Source: Minisyncoccota bacterium
Lineage (GTDB): Bacteria > Patescibacteriota > Minisyncoccia > Phycocordibacterales > UBA12088
Assembly: GCA_041908795.1 (NCBI GenBank)
Contig: JAYRER010000048.1
Location: 18,413 to 82,412 of the forward strand
Direction: 5' to 3'
Length of the DNA: 64,000 bases
The position numbers and the translations under genes were made by a program. Of the stretch, positions 48,435-50,108 are shown piece after piece (the stretch's first letter is position 1; the number at the start of each line of letters is the position of its first letter). The notes below the pieces were generated by a model, which worked only from the letters and a program-made list of their open reading frames with translations, ran no database searches and was not told the origin of the DNA.

Positions 48435-49040
48435 TTATGCCGCACGTACTTCAATGAGTGTACCGCGTCGTCCCGGTACGGCGCCCTCGAGAATAAGTTG
48501 TCCACGCTCATTGTCAACCGCGAGCACCTTGAGGTTTTTCACCGTCACACGCGTCCCTCCTGTGCGACCTGCCATACGCATACCCTTCGGTACACGAGTA
48601 CGCAAGCCACCGCCTATCGAACCCGGCTGTCGCGCATTGTGCTTTTGACCGTGAGATGCGGGACCTCCCGAAAACCCGTGACGCTTGATGACACCTTGGA
48701 ACCCTTTCGCTTTTGAAATGCCTGACACGGCAACCACGTCACCAGGAGCAAATGCATCCGCCACACCGTAGGTGCTCCCTGCCTCCGGCGCACTCACATC
48801 GTCCGTAAACCGATACTCACAAAAGTGGCGGAACAAGCCCTTGGTGCGTTGTGCCTTATGCACGTGAGACTCCTTTTTCGCGCCATAGCCCACCTGCACC
48901 GCTCGGTAGCCATCCTTTTCCAGAGTCTTCACCTGCGTCACTGTCATAGGCCCCACCTTGAGAATGGTCGCCGGATGTACCCTGCCGTCCTTGTCGAAAA
49001 CCTGGGTCATTTCTTCTTTTGTAGCTAAAATGAATTTCAT
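48435..49040 (-). CDS. rplC: 50S ribosomal protein L3
   Basis: 201 aa, GISKAKGFQGVIKRHGFSGGPASHG. Confidence 0.95.
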   Translation of the reverse strand: MKFILATKEEMTQVFDKDGRVHPATILKVGPMTVTQVKTLEKDGYRAVQVGYGAKKESHVHKAQRTKGLFRHFCEYRFTDDVSAPEAGSTYGVADAFAPGDVVAVSGISKAKGFQGVIKRHGFSGGPASHGQKHNARQPGSIGGGLRTRVPKGMRMAGRTGGTRVTVKNLKVLAVDNERGQLILEGAVPGRRGTLIEVRAA

Positions 49041-49374
49041 GCTTGTCTTTGATTCCTACGTATCGTGGACCTAAAAAAAATCGTTACCCTGCACTTTCGA
49101 AGAAAATACTATCCGAAACAACCGATAGAGATTGCGACACACCGCAACGTGTTGCGTCTGCAATGCTTAGAAAGGCTTAGAAAGTGCAGGATTGTAGAAG
49201 AATATAGTCGCTTTGCTCCTTATTCTTCTACAAAAATCGCCCATACCGGACCAGTCGCCGGTAAGGCGGAAAGTCCAGTGGTTTTTGGCTCTGTTGAGCC
49301 GAAAACATGGAGTTAGCAACAGTGCTAACCTATGAGCCCATGCACTATACAGGAACTATGTGTGGGATGCAAAT

Positions 49375-49403
49375 TTGACATAAATTATGTTGGATAGTAT
49401 AAT
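49375..49403 (+). promoter_or_regulatory. Consensus sigma70-type promoter TTGACA-17 nt-TATAAT on the plus strand, inside the rplC-rpsJ gap
   Basis: ttgacataaattatgttggatagtataat read directly. It matches the canonical -35/-10 hexamers exactly with 17-nt spacing, followed by AGGAG (49428-49432) and TTG at 49441. Confidence 0.5.
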
Positions 49404-49440
49404 ATCAACAGTAGTTCGCCACCACCGAGGAGTACGCAAA

Positions 49441-49671
49441 TTGGACATTGCGGTTCAGGGTGTTGCTGCGGTTATCACGTTCTTCTTTGCAGTGCGTGCG
49501 TTTGTGAAGGAGGAAAAGCGCAGTGCGGTATACGCGTTTTTTGGGCTCGCGTGGCTCATGTTCTGGTGCGCGTACCTCGATTGGCTCGAGATCCTCCACT
49601 GGGTGATGGACGCCACCTGTCTGTTTTTTGGTGCTTGCCTCCATATGTTCTTCATAAAAAAAATGTTGTAG
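49441..49671 (+). CDS. Small hydrophobic membrane protein (about 76 aa) on the strand opposite the flanking ribosomal genes
   Basis: The track ORF 49387-49671 begins inside the promoter spacer. TTG at 49441 has a GAGGAG SD 8 nt upstream. The product has 2-3 TM helices. Confidence 0.4.
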   Translation: MDIAVQGVAAVITFFFAVRAFVKEEKRSAVYAFFGLAWLMFWCAYLDWLEILHWVMDATCLFFGACLHMFFIKKML

Positions 49672-49742
49672 GCACCAACATGGTCTTGCTTCCAACCAAC
49701 AACCGCCCTTTCGGGCGGTTGTTCTGTTGTATTCTTTTGTCC

Positions 49743-50108
49743 TTAGCTCATCTTCACATCTATGTTCACGCCGCTCGGGAGAGACAGATTCGTGAGTGCC
49801 TCGATGATTTTTGGATTCGGATTCAAGATATCAATCACCCGCTTGTGTACCCGCATCTCGAACTGCTCTCGCGCGTCCTTGTGGACGAATGCGGCTCGGT
49901 TTACGGTATACTTCTTTATTTCGGTAGGGAGCGGCACGGGACCGACCACCTTTGCGTCGTAGCGAAGCGCGGTATCCATGATTTGTTTGATGCTCGCGTC
50001 AAGGATTTTATGCTCGTACGCGCGAATGCGGATGCGAAGCTTCGCGCCCTCACCCGTTACGGGCTTCACTGCACGGGTACGCTTTGCTTTTGTTGTGGCG
50101 GTGGTCAT
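49743..50108 (-). CDS. rpsJ: 30S ribosomal protein S10
   Basis: IRIRAYEHKILD...GPVPLPT. Confidence 0.95.
   Translation of the reverse strand: MTTATTKAKRTRAVKPVTGEGAKLRIRIRAYEHKILDASIKQIMDTALRYDAKVVGPVPLPTEIKKYTVNRAAFVHKDAREQFEMRVHKRVIDILNPNPKIIEALTNLSLPSGVNIDVKMS

What the first reader, a model, noticed from the sequence alone, without database searches (positions are those of the whole stretch)
49041..49742. A 700-nt insertion between rplC and rpsJ with a consensus promoter, a small opposite-strand membrane ORF and a highly structured ~110-nt element
rpsJ and rplC are normally adjacent. Here the gap holds three things: (i) a textbook TTGACA-17-TATAAT promoter on the plus strand (49375-49403), firing antisense to the r-protein operon and followed by SD plus TTG for a 76-aa membrane peptide; (ii) at about 49087-49200, nested inverted repeats (CCTGCACTTTC...GAAAGTGCAGG long-range stem enclosing GCAACgtGTTGC and TTGCGAC...GTCTGCAA stems) preceded on the minus strand by a U-tract, lying about 30 nt upstream of the rplC start, plus a 13-bp perfect hairpin TTGTAGAAGAATA...TATTCTTCTACAA at about 49210-49250. 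This looks like an r-protein leader, attenuator or small RNA rather than random spacer.
Basis: seen in the sequence. Interest (0 to 1): 0.5.

Follow-up and report, generated by a model that had tools for sequence, protein, structure and literature searches.

The report
Mosaic spacer: rplC attenuator plus repeat
The gap between two ribosomal-protein genes of this tiny-genome (Patescibacteria) bacterium holds a small inserted membrane-protein gene, a previously undescribed on/off RNA leader for the rplC operon, and one copy of a conserved RNA hairpin element that recurs at gene boundaries in related bacteria.

Summary
The flagged 13-bp hairpin and ~110-nt nested structure are not an rplC-specific leader. 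They are modules H1 and H2 of a three-part element (H1-H2-H3, 49051-49233, minus strand). Its 24-nt core matched at least 120 metagenome contigs, and none of 2.9 million viral contigs. It sits just after stop codons, tRNA 3' ends or terminators, co-oriented with the genes, mostly in translation-apparatus operons. No Rfam family matches it.

It has its own promoter (TTGCAT-17-TATAGT) and is found upstream of rplC in 11 related genomes. It carries covarying hairpins, invariant CCAUGU and ACCACUGGAC, an intrinsic terminator, and conserved mutually exclusive antiterminator and anti-antiterminator pairings. This is attenuator architecture like the E. coli S10/L4 leader, with no sequence homology to it.

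The consensus plus-strand promoter and the 76-aa membrane ORF are real and conserved in the closest relative. They belong to a lineage-specific ~510-nt insertion that split rpsJ from the ancestral H1.

The effector of the leader and the function of H1-H2-H3 are inferred, not shown.

The parts
49743..50108 (-). rpsJ (S10), 121 aa. Context gene, co-transcribed with tuf. Its last codon and stop (AGC TAA) differ from the ancestral ..ATG TTG TAG.
   Evidence: ORF list and Pfam PF00338, E = 1.7e-31. C-terminus compared with L037 and L026.
49698..49723 (.). Perfect 11-bp GC-rich hairpin (AACAACCGCCC/GGGCGGTTGTT) between the convergent small ORF and rpsJ. It is a terminator for the plus-strand ORF (T-rich tail). 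The tail is weaker on the minus strand.
   Evidence: The only weak Rfam hits here are to terminator-like parts of RNAI/ryfA.
49441..49671 (+). Small hydrophobic ORF, 76 aa, TTG start.
   Evidence: 53% identical over 74 aa without gaps, and with the same start, to a 77-aa ORF at the same place in L001. No Pfam match, and only a self hit among 5.8 billion proteins. L002 has an unrelated 83-aa ORF, hydrophobic by eye, at the same place.
49375..49403 (+). Promoter P1, TTGACA-17-TATAAT, driving the small ORF.
   Evidence: 12/12 match, unique in the window. Both hexamers and the spacing are conserved in L001 and L002.
49344..49372 (-). Promoter P2, TTGCAT-17-TATAGT, back to back with P1. Predicted transcription start near 49337.
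   Evidence: Unique in the window. TTGCAT-16/17-TATA[GC]T is present in 11 of 11 related rplC upstream regions.
49232..49338 (-). rplC-operon leader RNA (~105 nt). In transcript order: 5' strand GCUCAU; P2 hairpin 49312-49329; region 1 CCAUGU 49305-49310; P3 hairpin 49283-49304; region 2 ACCACUGGAC 49273-49282; terminator 49238-49268; U-tract 49232-49236.
   Evidence: z = -6.0. Found only upstream of rplC, in 11 loci out of 1.37 Mb searched. Hairpins and terminator covary. Alternative pairings are conserved.
49238..49268 (-). Intrinsic terminator of the leader: CGCCU-UACCGG ... CCGGUA-U-GGGCG, followed by AUUUUU.
   Evidence: Hairpin of -7 to -19 kcal/mol in all 11 leaders, followed by a run of four or more U in 9 of them (weaker in L204 and L206). 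RNAalifold finds 10 pairs, 4 with compensatory changes.
49192..49233 (-). H1 module: 13-bp hairpin around the conserved core AAUAAGGAGCAAAGCGACUAUAUU (49201-49224). Its 5' arm UUGUAG is a fossil of the ancestral rpsJ end.
   Evidence: The core is unique in the window. 128 non-redundant instances. The outer stem covaries: 194 double-change cells against 75.5 in shuffles, 0 of 500 shuffles as high. The H1 model scores the window copy at 53.8 bits.
49088..49190 (-). H2 module: long G/C-footed stem (CCUGCACUUUC/GAAAGUGCAGG) enclosing two inner hairpins. Its size and sequence vary between copies.
   Evidence: The equivalent hairpin is 20-140 nt long in L007, L010, L026, L034, L037 and L038.
49051..49082 (-). 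H3-like A/U-footed hairpin (GAUUUUUUUU..GGAAUC), ending 10 nt before the rplC ATG. It is diverged from the family consensus.
   Evidence: Family H3 is GAUUUUUA-UAUUCACUACGUUCAU-UAAAAAUC; in the listed examples it ends a few nt (by eye about 3-10) before the downstream ATG, in 22 of 128 copies.
48435..49040 (-). [quoted passage not shown]

Best explanation
The spacer is a mosaic of three independent things.

(1) A lineage-specific insertion of about 510 nt (49234-49748). It split rpsJ from its ancestral downstream hairpin. It carries a terminator hairpin, a small membrane-protein gene with a consensus promoter P1, and, divergently, promoter P2 with a leader RNA.

(2) The leader (49232-49338, minus strand) is the cis-regulatory attenuator of the rplC-rplD-... 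operon in this Paceibacteria subclade. As it is transcribed, CCAUGU (region 1) can pair with ACCACUGG (region 2) at the foot of hairpin P3. That leaves the terminator (3:4) free to form and stop transcription at the U-tract. Alternatively, region 2 (ACUGGAC) pairs with the 3' arm of the terminator (GUCCGGU), and the 5' end (GCUCAU) pairs with AUGGGC. This gives a closed four-way junction that lets RNA polymerase read on into rplC. An effector shifts the balance. The most likely effector is a ribosomal protein encoded in the operon (L4 or L3).

It is one copy of a low-copy family present in many related Patescibacteria. H1 is a conserved hairpin with an A-bulge, tandem G.A/A.G pairs and a GNA triloop; these three features are my proposed pairing, read from the consensus. 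Its outer stem recruits the last nucleotides of whatever lies upstream. H2 is variable. H3 is a degenerate inverted copy of H1 next to the downstream start codon. I infer that it acts in cis at the RNA level as a boundary module, for example a protein-recognised site for processing or stabilisation, or a compaction module.

Shown: the anatomy, conservation, covariation, orientation bias and alternative pairings. Inferred: that transcription actually terminates and reads through, the identity of the effector, and any function of H1-H2-H3.
For: Insertion. Relatives have rpsJ-rplC gaps of 11-190 nt. In L007, L026, L034, L037, L038, L111 and L169, H1 begins at the rpsJ stop codon (..AUG UUG UAG AAAAUAA..). 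The window's H1 keeps UUGUAG although rpsJ now ends ..AUG AGC UAA about 510 nt away.

Leader.
- An 84% / 72% identical block is shared with L001 / L002.
- The same architecture was found in 8 more genomes fetched through rplC homologs.
- The promoter is conserved 11 of 11.
- The motif CCATG..ACC[AT]CTGGA occurs only upstream of rplC, 11 times in 1.37 Mb.
- RNAalifold finds a terminator of 10 pairs, 4 with compensatory changes. P3 has 3 compensatory pairs. The CCA/UGG helix is predicted.
- In all 11 leaders the terminator hairpin is -7 to -19 kcal/mol, followed by a run of four or more U in 9 of them (weaker in L204 and L206). The antiterminator duplex is -8 to -11 kcal/mol and overlaps the terminator's 3' arm. 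Partner variants GUCCGGU and GUUCAGU both pair with the invariant ACUGGAC.
- The two states differ by -9.4 to +5.5 kcal/mol.
- z = -6.0.

H1-H2-H3.
- There are 58 distinct complementary flank pairs. At flank positions 1-5 the counts are 497 Watson-Crick, 35 G.U and 10 A.C.
- Covariation score is 0.251 against 0.093 in shuffles; 0 of 500 shuffles reach it.
- Same-strand ORFs of at least 100 aa stop at the 5' foot of H1 in 44 of 128 copies. The mirror test on the opposite strand gives 2 of 128.
- H1 follows tRNA genes by 3-4 nt.
- The neighbours are ribosomal proteins, NusA, EF-Tu, S1, SSB, RpoA/C, aminoacyl-tRNA synthetases and similar genes.
- H3 lies next to the downstream ATG.
- The H3 of L123 scores 30 bits with the H1 model on the opposite strand.
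- There is no Rfam family and no viral hit.
Against: There are no expression data. Promoter use, termination, read-through and processing are all predictions.

Leader. Regions 1 and 2 are invariant, so their pairings cannot be tested by covariation. The P1 closing stem is clear only in window, L001 and L203, and is ambiguous in L204-L208. The U-tract is weak in L204 and L206. Nothing ties the switch to L4 or L3 beyond the analogy. No rRNA from these organisms was available to test mimicry.

H1-H2-H3. All pattern-found copies share the fixed core by construction, so core pairs are untested. The exceptions are n6:y18 and the inner stem in a few diverged copies. About 20 copies (counted by eye) lie just downstream of a canonical terminator, where transcription would be low unless there is read-through. 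GNA triloops and tandem G.A pairs are also hallmarks of very stable single-stranded DNA hairpins (PMC13037366). The gene-orientation bias could partly reflect replication direction. My crude neighbour-strand census was less clean than the stop-codon test.
Confidence: 0.6

Rival explanations
1. One reading: the 13-bp hairpin and the ~110-nt nested structure (49087-49233) are an rplC-specific ribosomal-protein leader, attenuator or small RNA.
For: The structure lies in the rplC 5' UTR and is strongly structured (z = -5.2). A U8 tract follows H2. In L007, L026, L034, L037, L038, L111 and L169 the same modules also lie between rpsJ and rplC.
Against: The element is absent from the two closest relatives, which keep the real leader. 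The same H1 core sits behind dozens of unrelated genes and tRNAs, and only 2 of 120 metagenome contigs place it next to rpsJ/rplC. H2 is not conserved in sequence or size. The U8 tract is 6 nt from the stem, which is poor geometry for an intrinsic terminator.
Confidence: 0.08
2. H1-H2-H3 is a selfish, MITE-like or REP/PATE-like DNA element. H1 and H3 are terminal inverted repeats or single-strand DNA hairpins recognised by a transposase. Its position merely reflects where insertions are tolerated, and it has no host function.
For: H3 resembles the reverse complement of H1: 15 of 20 consensus positions by eye, L123 at 30 bits with E about 2e-3, and weaker partial hits in L193 and L131. Presence is patchy at the same locus among relatives. 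Tandem partial duplications occur in L147, L196, L197 and L164. GNA triloops and tandem G.A pairs stabilise DNA hairpins (PMC13037366). The modular architecture recalls BOX, ERIC and Correia elements (PMC3184786).
Against: Copy number is low: 1 in the 64-kb window and about 5 extra copies in 670 kb of flanks. No target-site duplication was seen by eye. No transposase recurs next to the copies. The core is identical across genomes whose L3 proteins are only 52-58% identical, which argues for purifying selection. The stop-codon association is strongly strand-specific, 44 against 2. The outer stem is built from host sequence rather than carried by the element.
Confidence: 0.22
3. The 49232-49338 transcript is a free-standing small RNA gene. 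It has a promoter, a ~105-nt cloverleaf-like RNA and a terminator. It acts in trans, and rplC is expressed from elsewhere.
For: The promoter and terminator are strong. The minimum-free-energy fold is a closed four-way junction holding 22% of the ensemble. In the window the terminator is about 190 nt from rplC.
Against: In all 11 genomes the RNA lies immediately upstream of rplC and co-oriented with it, even where rplC has moved away from rpsJ. In L001, L203 and L208 the U-tract ends 6-10 nt before the rplC ATG, leaving no room for another promoter. No other promoter-like site lies between the terminator and rplC in the window. The conserved antiterminator only makes sense if read-through matters.
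Confidence: 0.1
4. The leader is a ribosome-sensing (leader-peptide) attenuator. A ribosome initiating at the conserved AUG inside CCAUGU masks region 1 and so frees region 2 to form the antiterminator.
For: The AUG is invariant in 11 of 11 leaders, and U always follows it. The 1:2 / 2:4 / 3:4 logic mirrors trp-type attenuators. The genome does not depend on Shine-Dalgarno sequences.
Against: The ORF from this AUG is 3-37 codons long. Its frame relative to region 2 differs between genomes, and the peptide is not conserved. CCAUGU conservation is already explained by pairing with ACCACUGG.
Confidence: 0.1

Closest known systems
E. coli S10-operon leader (L4-mediated transcription attenuation and translational repression)
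   Same: It is a structured leader of about 100-170 nt downstream of its own promoter. It contains several hairpins and an intrinsic terminator shortly before the first gene of the operon that encodes L3, L4, L23, L2, S19 and L22. Regulation is by premature termination (PMC3616713 and the Zengel and Lindahl papers cited there).
   Different: Here the leader precedes rplC, not rpsJ, because rpsJ has been split off. There is no sequence or Rfam-detectable similarity. The E. coli RNA is confined to Gammaproteobacteria (PMC3616713). An explicit antiterminator and anti-antiterminator are conserved here, whereas, from my own knowledge, the E. coli system works through an L4/NusA-stabilised pause at the terminator. 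L4 involvement is untested.
B. subtilis infC-rpmI-rplT leader (L20-controlled transcription attenuation)
   Same: A ribosomal-protein operon leader in which mutually exclusive terminator and antiterminator structures decide read-through in response to an operon-encoded ribosomal protein (PMC1865079).
   Different: The operon, the sequence and the phylum all differ. The leader is about 200 nt there and about 105 nt here. Protein binding and rRNA mimicry are shown there and are unknown here.
REP/BIME, ERIC, BOX and Correia elements (small structured intergenic repeats, MITE-like)
   Same: These are short palindromic or modular units in transcribed intergenic regions, often just after stop codons inside operons. 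They fold as RNA, and their presence varies between relatives. BOX is modular, A-(B)n-C, like H1-H2-H3 with its variable middle (PMC3184786; my own knowledge for BOX).
   Different: The H1 family is low copy (about 1 per 60-130 kb) rather than tens to hundreds of copies. Only a ~28-nt core is conserved, but it is conserved across deeply diverged genomes. The outer stem is made from host sequence. There is no target duplication, no GTAG head and no linked transposase. The family is concentrated in translation-apparatus operons and behind tRNAs.
MIRU (mycobacterial interspersed repetitive units)
   Same: Oriented intercistronic elements inside operons, whose ends overlap the stop and start codons of the flanking genes (my own knowledge).
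   Different: MIRUs are direct tandem repeats that encode small peptides. They are not conserved hairpins, and there is no sequence relation.

Membership tests
Ribosomal-protein operon leader with transcription attenuation (S10/L4-type, infC/L20-type) | Lies in the 5' UTR of a ribosomal-protein operon, downstream of a dedicated promoter, and is linked to that operon across genomes | tested here: met
   P2 and the leader lie directly upstream of rplC in 11 of 11 genomes, including those where rplC is no longer next to rpsJ. The motif is found nowhere else in 1.37 Mb.
Ribosomal-protein operon leader with transcription attenuation (S10/L4-type, infC/L20-type) | Intrinsic terminator (hairpin plus U-tract) inside the leader, supported by covariation | tested here: met
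   10-pair stem with 4 compensatory pairs. A run of four or more U follows in 9 of 11 leaders and is weaker in L204 and L206.
Ribosomal-protein operon leader with transcription attenuation (S10/L4-type, infC/L20-type) | Alternative structure mutually exclusive with the terminator | tested here: met
   The ACUGGAC:GUCCGGU/GUUCAGU duplex overlaps the terminator's 3' arm in 11 of 11 leaders. The energies of the two states are within -9.4 to +5.5 kcal/mol. This is computational only.
Ribosomal-protein operon leader with transcription attenuation (S10/L4-type, infC/L20-type) | Binding of, and response to, an operon-encoded ribosomal protein; mimicry of its rRNA site | not testable with these tools
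E. coli L4-interacting RNA or any Rfam leader family | Detectable sequence or structure homology (covariance-model match) | tested here: not met
   cmscan of 48900-49900 at E up to 10 gives no hit between 49041 and 49586. The whole window at gathering threshold gives only one tRNA.
MITE (Correia/ERIC/BOX-like) | Terminal inverted repeats | tested here: inconclusive
   The H3 consensus matches the reverse complement of H1 at 15 of 20 positions by eye. With the H1 model, L123's H3 scores 30 bits on the opposite strand, but the other cases give only 12-13 bits partial. The window's H3 is diverged.
MITE (Correia/ERIC/BOX-like) | Many similar copies per genome | tested here: not met
   One copy in 64 kb at up to 3 mismatches. 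About 5 additional copies in 670 kb of flanking DNA.
MITE (Correia/ERIC/BOX-like) | Target-site duplication and a cognate transposase | tested here: inconclusive
   No direct repeats were seen at the ends of inspected copies, by eye only. tRNA-adjacent copies do show CCAC(A)nAAAUAA on both sides of H1-H2. No transposase family recurs among the neighbours.
REP / RAYT system | Conserved GTAG head, high copy number, linked RAYT (Y1 transposase) | tested here: not met
   The flanks of H1 are variable, with 58 different 4+4 flanks. GTAG in the window copy is the rpsJ fossil. Copy number is low. RAYT linkage was not tested.
Kink-turn / box C/D-type protein-binding motif, TIGR arrays | Three-nt bulge directly 5' of tandem G.A/A.G; box C RUGAUGA and box D CUGA; alternating repeats with 9-nt spacers | tested here: not met
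   In the pairing I propose, H1 has tandem G.A pairs but only a single bulged A two pairs away. There are no C or D boxes (sequence inspection of A5). Array units are near-identical without variable spacers. TIGR features were taken from PMC12045711.
Intrinsic terminator (for H2 plus U8 in the window) | G/C-rich hairpin immediately followed by a U-tract | tested here: inconclusive
   The stem ends at 49088 and the U8 tract is at 49073-49080, 6 nt away. The site is not called by the terminator scan. Several family members have H2 followed by the U-rich 5' arm of H3.

The most novel reading that the evidence does not exclude
H1 is the recognition hairpin of an unrecognised post-transcriptional system shared by many related Patescibacteria. 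A dedicated protein, or the ribosome or an RNase, would read a ~28-nt module with tandem G.A pairs placed exactly at the 3' boundary of ORFs, tRNAs and terminators in translation-apparatus operons. It would punctuate, stabilise or co-regulate these transcripts. This would be a bacterial counterpart of tRNA punctuation, or a translation-machinery regulon in organisms that lack Shine-Dalgarno-based and most classical ribosomal-protein feedback control.
Probability: 0.2. Interest if true: 0.8.

Novelty: new variant of a known kind. Interest (0 to 1): 0.58.

Why it matters
Almost nothing is known about gene regulation in Patescibacteria/CPR. They are uncultivated symbionts with tiny genomes, and most classical ribosomal-protein leaders are confined to other phyla.

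The rplC leader would be a first candidate for ribosomal-protein feedback by attenuation in this radiation. It also shows how an operon that lost its upstream gene acquired a new promoter and switch.

The H1-H2-H3 family is a strongly conserved, structure-supported motif that marks gene boundaries in the translation apparatus and is absent from Rfam. Its core gives a simple handle for finding its binding partner. It is also a ready target for checking in existing groundwater metatranscriptomes. Either outcome, regulatory module or a new type of small repeat, adds to what is known about CPR genome biology.

Tried and rejected
- **RNase P RNA.** GGCGGAAAGTCCAG on the plus strand resembles CR-I, but there is no 3' partner in the right order and no Rfam hit. 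Rejected.
- **SRP, 6S or tmRNA identity for the leader.** No Rfam or ARAGORN hit. Rejected.
- **Window-internal repeat or MITE copies of the 180-nt element.** None found in 64 kb.
- **H1 as a Shine-Dalgarno element.** Core position 6 is variable (G 69, C 21, U 19, A 10), and the genome barely uses Shine-Dalgarno sequences: 10 of 62 genes. Rejected.
- **H1 as a promoter** (TATATT as the -10 box). This does not explain the complementary flanks and has no conserved -35. Rejected.
- **Kink-turn, sarcin-ricin, UAA/GAN and group II intron domain V.** The geometries do not fit by inspection.
- **boxA antitermination site.** The boxA-like string lies on the wrong strand of H1 and is only loosely present in the H3 loop. 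Not pursued.
- **TIGR or CRISPR arrays** for the 46-48-nt tandem units. The units are identical, with no spacers and no C or D boxes. Rejected.
- **Leader peptide.** Not conserved.
- **Phage origin.** The H1 core gives 0 hits in 2.9 million viral contigs.
- **Homologs of the small ORF.** Only a self hit. The exact-match look-up of rpsJ found nothing.
- **Literature.** Searches for CPR repeats or leaders found nothing relevant.
Full report
**1. The observation**

The window comes from a Patescibacteria genome (Paceibacteria / "Nomurabacteria"-like). The closest rplC loci are all metagenome-assembled genomes of that group.

On the minus strand the order is tuf, rpsJ (49743-50108), a 702-nt gap, rplC (48435-49040), then rplD.

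- The 12/12 promoter TTGACA-17-TATAAT at 49375-49403 (+). It is unique in the 64 kb.
- The ORF starting at TTG 49441.
- The long-range stem 49088-49102 / 49176-49190 with inner stems.
- A perfect 13-bp hairpin at 49192-49233.

The folding energy is far below that of shuffled sequence on both strands. The z-scores are -6.5 and -7.0 for the 334 nt, -5.2 for 49041-49236 (minus strand), and -6.0 for 49232-49338 (minus strand). Rfam has nothing for 49041-49586 even at E up to 10.

**2. Relatives split the gap into three parts**

In about 40 related Patescibacteria loci, rpsJ and rplC are usually 11-190 nt apart. The two closest relatives are L001 (L3 83% identical) and L002 (70%). With the window they share only the block 49223-49382, at 84% and 72% identity.

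It is the region between that structure and the plus-strand promoter. The flagged hairpin and 110-nt structure are missing from L001 and L002.

More distant genomes (L007, L026, L034, L038, later L037, L111 and L169, with a variant in L010) do carry the flagged modules. There they lie directly between the rpsJ stop codon and rplC.

**3. The rplC leader (49232-49338, minus strand)**

*How more examples were found.* I fetched eight more relatives through close L3 homologs. All have the same upstream unit: TTGCAT-16/17-TATA[GC]T (11 of 11), followed by an RNA of about 95-120 nt. The unit is present even where rplC is no longer next to rpsJ. In L205 the upstream gene encodes a large CARDB protein. 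In L206 and L207 it is other genes. In L203 and L208 there are unrelated small antisense ORFs.

*Anatomy.* In transcript order, the leader has:

- a variable hairpin P2;
- the invariant CCAUGU (region 1);
- a variable hairpin P3;
- the invariant ACC(A/U)CUGGAC (region 2);
- a two-segment terminator hairpin, followed by a run of four or more U in 9 of 11 leaders.

RNAalifold on the 11 sequences recovers three things:

- the terminator: 10 pairs, 4 with compensatory changes;
- P3: 3 compensatory pairs;
- a helix joining CCA of region 1 to UGG of region 2.

*Alternative pairings.* In every sequence ACUGGAC can instead pair with the 3' arm of the terminator. The partner varies (GUCCGGU or GUUCAGU) but keeps pairing through wobble.

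The terminator state and the antiterminator state differ by only -9.4 to +5.5 kcal/mol. In the window the antiterminated form is a closed four-way junction in which the 5' end GCUCAU pairs with AUGGGC.

This is the classical 1:2 / 2:4 / 3:4 attenuator logic.

*What was excluded.* The AUG inside CCAUGU opens ORFs of 3-37 codons in different frames. A conserved leader peptide is therefore unlikely.

*Why it is a leader and not a free sRNA.* Three observations point the same way:

- The unit is always linked to rplC.
- In L001, L203 and L208 the U-tract lies 6-10 nt from the ATG.
- No other promoter-like site lies before rplC.

I therefore read it as the operon's attenuator.

*Effector.* The effector is unknown. 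By analogy with the E. coli S10 leader (L4; PMC3616713) and the B. subtilis infC leader (L20; PMC1865079), an operon-encoded ribosomal protein is the most likely candidate.

**4. The flagged structure is one copy of a widespread element**

*The core and its distribution.* The 13-bp hairpin (H1) contains the core AAUAAnGAGCnnnGCGAyUAUAUU. This gave 128 non-redundant instances. Only two of the metagenome contigs have it next to rpsJ/rplC. The pattern gave no hit in 2.9 million viral contigs. Thirteen further loci gave no Rfam match over the element.

*Structure of H1.* The consensus extends to AA..UU on either side of the core. The next 3-5 flanking bases are complementary but differ between copies:

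- There are 58 distinct flank pairs.
- Counts at flank positions 1-5 are 497 Watson-Crick, 35 G.U and 10 A.C.
- There are 194 double-change cells against 75.5 in shuffles, and no shuffle of 500 reaches that.

Core position 6 covaries with position 18 (G-C, A-U).

The pairing that fits all of this, which I propose from the consensus, is:

- four A-U pairs;
- a bulged A;
- two further pairs;
- tandem G.A/A.G;
- a 2-bp stem;
- a GNA triloop.

Diverged copies keep the G.A pairs but change or lengthen the inner stem: AC/GU in L082 and L121, 3 bp in L037, and 6 bp in L010.

*Orientation and neighbours.* A same-strand ORF of at least 100 aa ends at the 5' foot of H1 in 44 of 128 copies. The mirror-image test gives 2 of 128. 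By eye:

- about 15 copies start 3-4 nt after a tRNA gene, and their stem includes the last tRNA nucleotides;
- about 20 copies follow a canonical terminator by 5-10 nt, as in the window.

The neighbouring genes are dominated by:

- ribosomal proteins;
- NusA, EF-Tu, S1 and SSB;
- RpoA/C;
- Hsp70, FtsZ and MreB;
- aminoacyl-tRNA synthetases.

*H2 and H3.* After H1 comes H2, a hairpin that usually starts with AACCC or AAUCC and varies in length. In the window it is 103 nt long and branched.

In at least 22 copies H3 follows. It is an A/U-footed hairpin (GAUUUUUA..UAAAAAUC, loop UAUUCACUACGUUCAU). In the listed examples it ends a few nt (by eye about 3-10) before the downstream start codon.

H3 resembles the reverse complement of H1. 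In L123 it scores 30 bits with the H1 model on the opposite strand. Other cases give only weak partial hits. The window has a diverged H3 at 49051-49082.

*Copy number.* It is low: one copy in this 64-kb window, and about five extra copies in 670 kb of flanks.

**5. History of this locus**

In L026, L034, L037 and L111, rpsJ ends ..GUG AAG AUG UUG UAG and H1 starts at that stop codon. In the window, H1 still begins UUGUAG. But rpsJ now ends ..GUG AAG AUG AGC UAA, about 510 nt upstream.

The simplest reading is this. A segment carrying the terminator hairpin, the small ORF, P1, P2 and the leader was inserted after ..AUG of rpsJ, and it supplied a new last codon and stop.

Three further loci fit this reading:

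- L206 keeps a degenerate H1-H2 between the leader's terminator and rplC.
- L001 and L002 have lost H1-H2-H3.
- L037 has a different insertion, downstream of H1-H2.

**6. The small gene**

The 76-aa ORF is 53% identical without gaps, and has the same start, as a 77-aa ORF in L001. P1 is conserved in L001 and L002.

It has no Pfam family and no other homolog in the large protein collection. It is a real orphan gene for a small, hydrophobic and probably membrane protein. It is terminated by the 49698-49723 hairpin.

**7. Mechanism and rivals**

*Leader.* An attenuator is well supported computationally. Involvement of L4 or L3 is analogy only.

*H1-H2-H3.* I favour an RNA-level boundary module recognised by a protein. 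The grounds are:

- the strand-specific link to stop codons and tRNA ends;
- the excess of G.U over A.C pairs;
- strict conservation of the core across genomes whose L3 proteins are only 52-58% identical;
- the low copy number.

The MITE/REP-like DNA-element reading remains alive, for four reasons:

- H1 and H3 form an inverted repeat.
- Presence at a given locus is patchy among relatives.
- Tandem partial duplications occur.
- GNA triloops and tandem G.A pairs are also typical of stable DNA hairpins (PMC13037366; PMC3184786).

Neither reading can be settled without transcript-end data or complete-genome censuses.

**8. Verdict**

The finding is real and more interesting than a simple spacer, but it needs re-labelling. 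The leader is a new member of a known kind (a ribosomal-protein attenuator). The hairpin element is a new, apparently undescribed variant of small structured intergenic elements, found in many related Patescibacteria.

Noticed in passing
L147 4474-4590; L196 10219-10380; L197 2873-3087 and 3588-3845; L164 3513-3635: Tandem arrays with a 46-48-nt period, made of near-identical partial H1+H2 units. There are no variable spacers, so they are not CRISPR- or TIGR-like. In L197 they are antisense to the flanking membrane-protein ORFs.
   Followed up: partly
L081, L086, L091, L098, L112, L133, L159, L181, L185 (H1 positions): H1 starts 3-4 nt after tRNA genes (His, Trp, Ala, Ser, Gly). Its stem pairs with the last 4-5 tRNA nucleotides. 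A hairpin GGAUGCC..GGCGCC-ACA follows. L098 has a second, degenerate H1 right after that hairpin, which suggests tandem duplication.
   Followed up: partly
L085, L088, L094, L113, L122, L146, L155, L176, L184, L187, L192, L198: A subfamily in which H1 is embedded as GCGACCUAGAA-[H1]-UUCGGAAGUACUCCUGUGGUGCGAC. The 22-nt GAAGUACUCCUGUGGUGCGAC recurs nearby in L155 and L192. It may be a separate RNA that uses H1 as a stem cap. No Rfam match.
   Followed up: no
window, whole 64 kb: Only 10 of 62 long ORFs have any 4-mer Shine-Dalgarno match at -20 to -4. This lineage appears to initiate translation without Shine-Dalgarno pairing.
   Followed up: partly
L002 943-1839 (+): A 298-aa ORF sits in the 2.1-kb rpsJ-rplC gap of L002 and looks transposase-like by eye. 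It was not scanned against Pfam. It suggests this junction is a hotspot for insertions. L001, L019, L031, L036 and L037 also have gaps of 0.66-1.4 kb.
   Followed up: no
window 50046-50108 (-) and the rpsJ genes of L001, L002, L037: S10 carries an N-terminal extension rich in Lys, Ala and Thr, of about 20-45 aa, ahead of the Pfam S10 domain (which starts at residue 25 in the window).
   Followed up: no
window 49065-49316 (+), 83-aa ORF, and other ORFs overlapping the leader and H1-H2: Mechanical ORFs cover the structured region on both strands. The 83-aa one (49065-49316, +) has no Pfam match; the others were not scanned. The conservation pattern is that of RNA stems, so they are most likely spurious.
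   Followed up: yes
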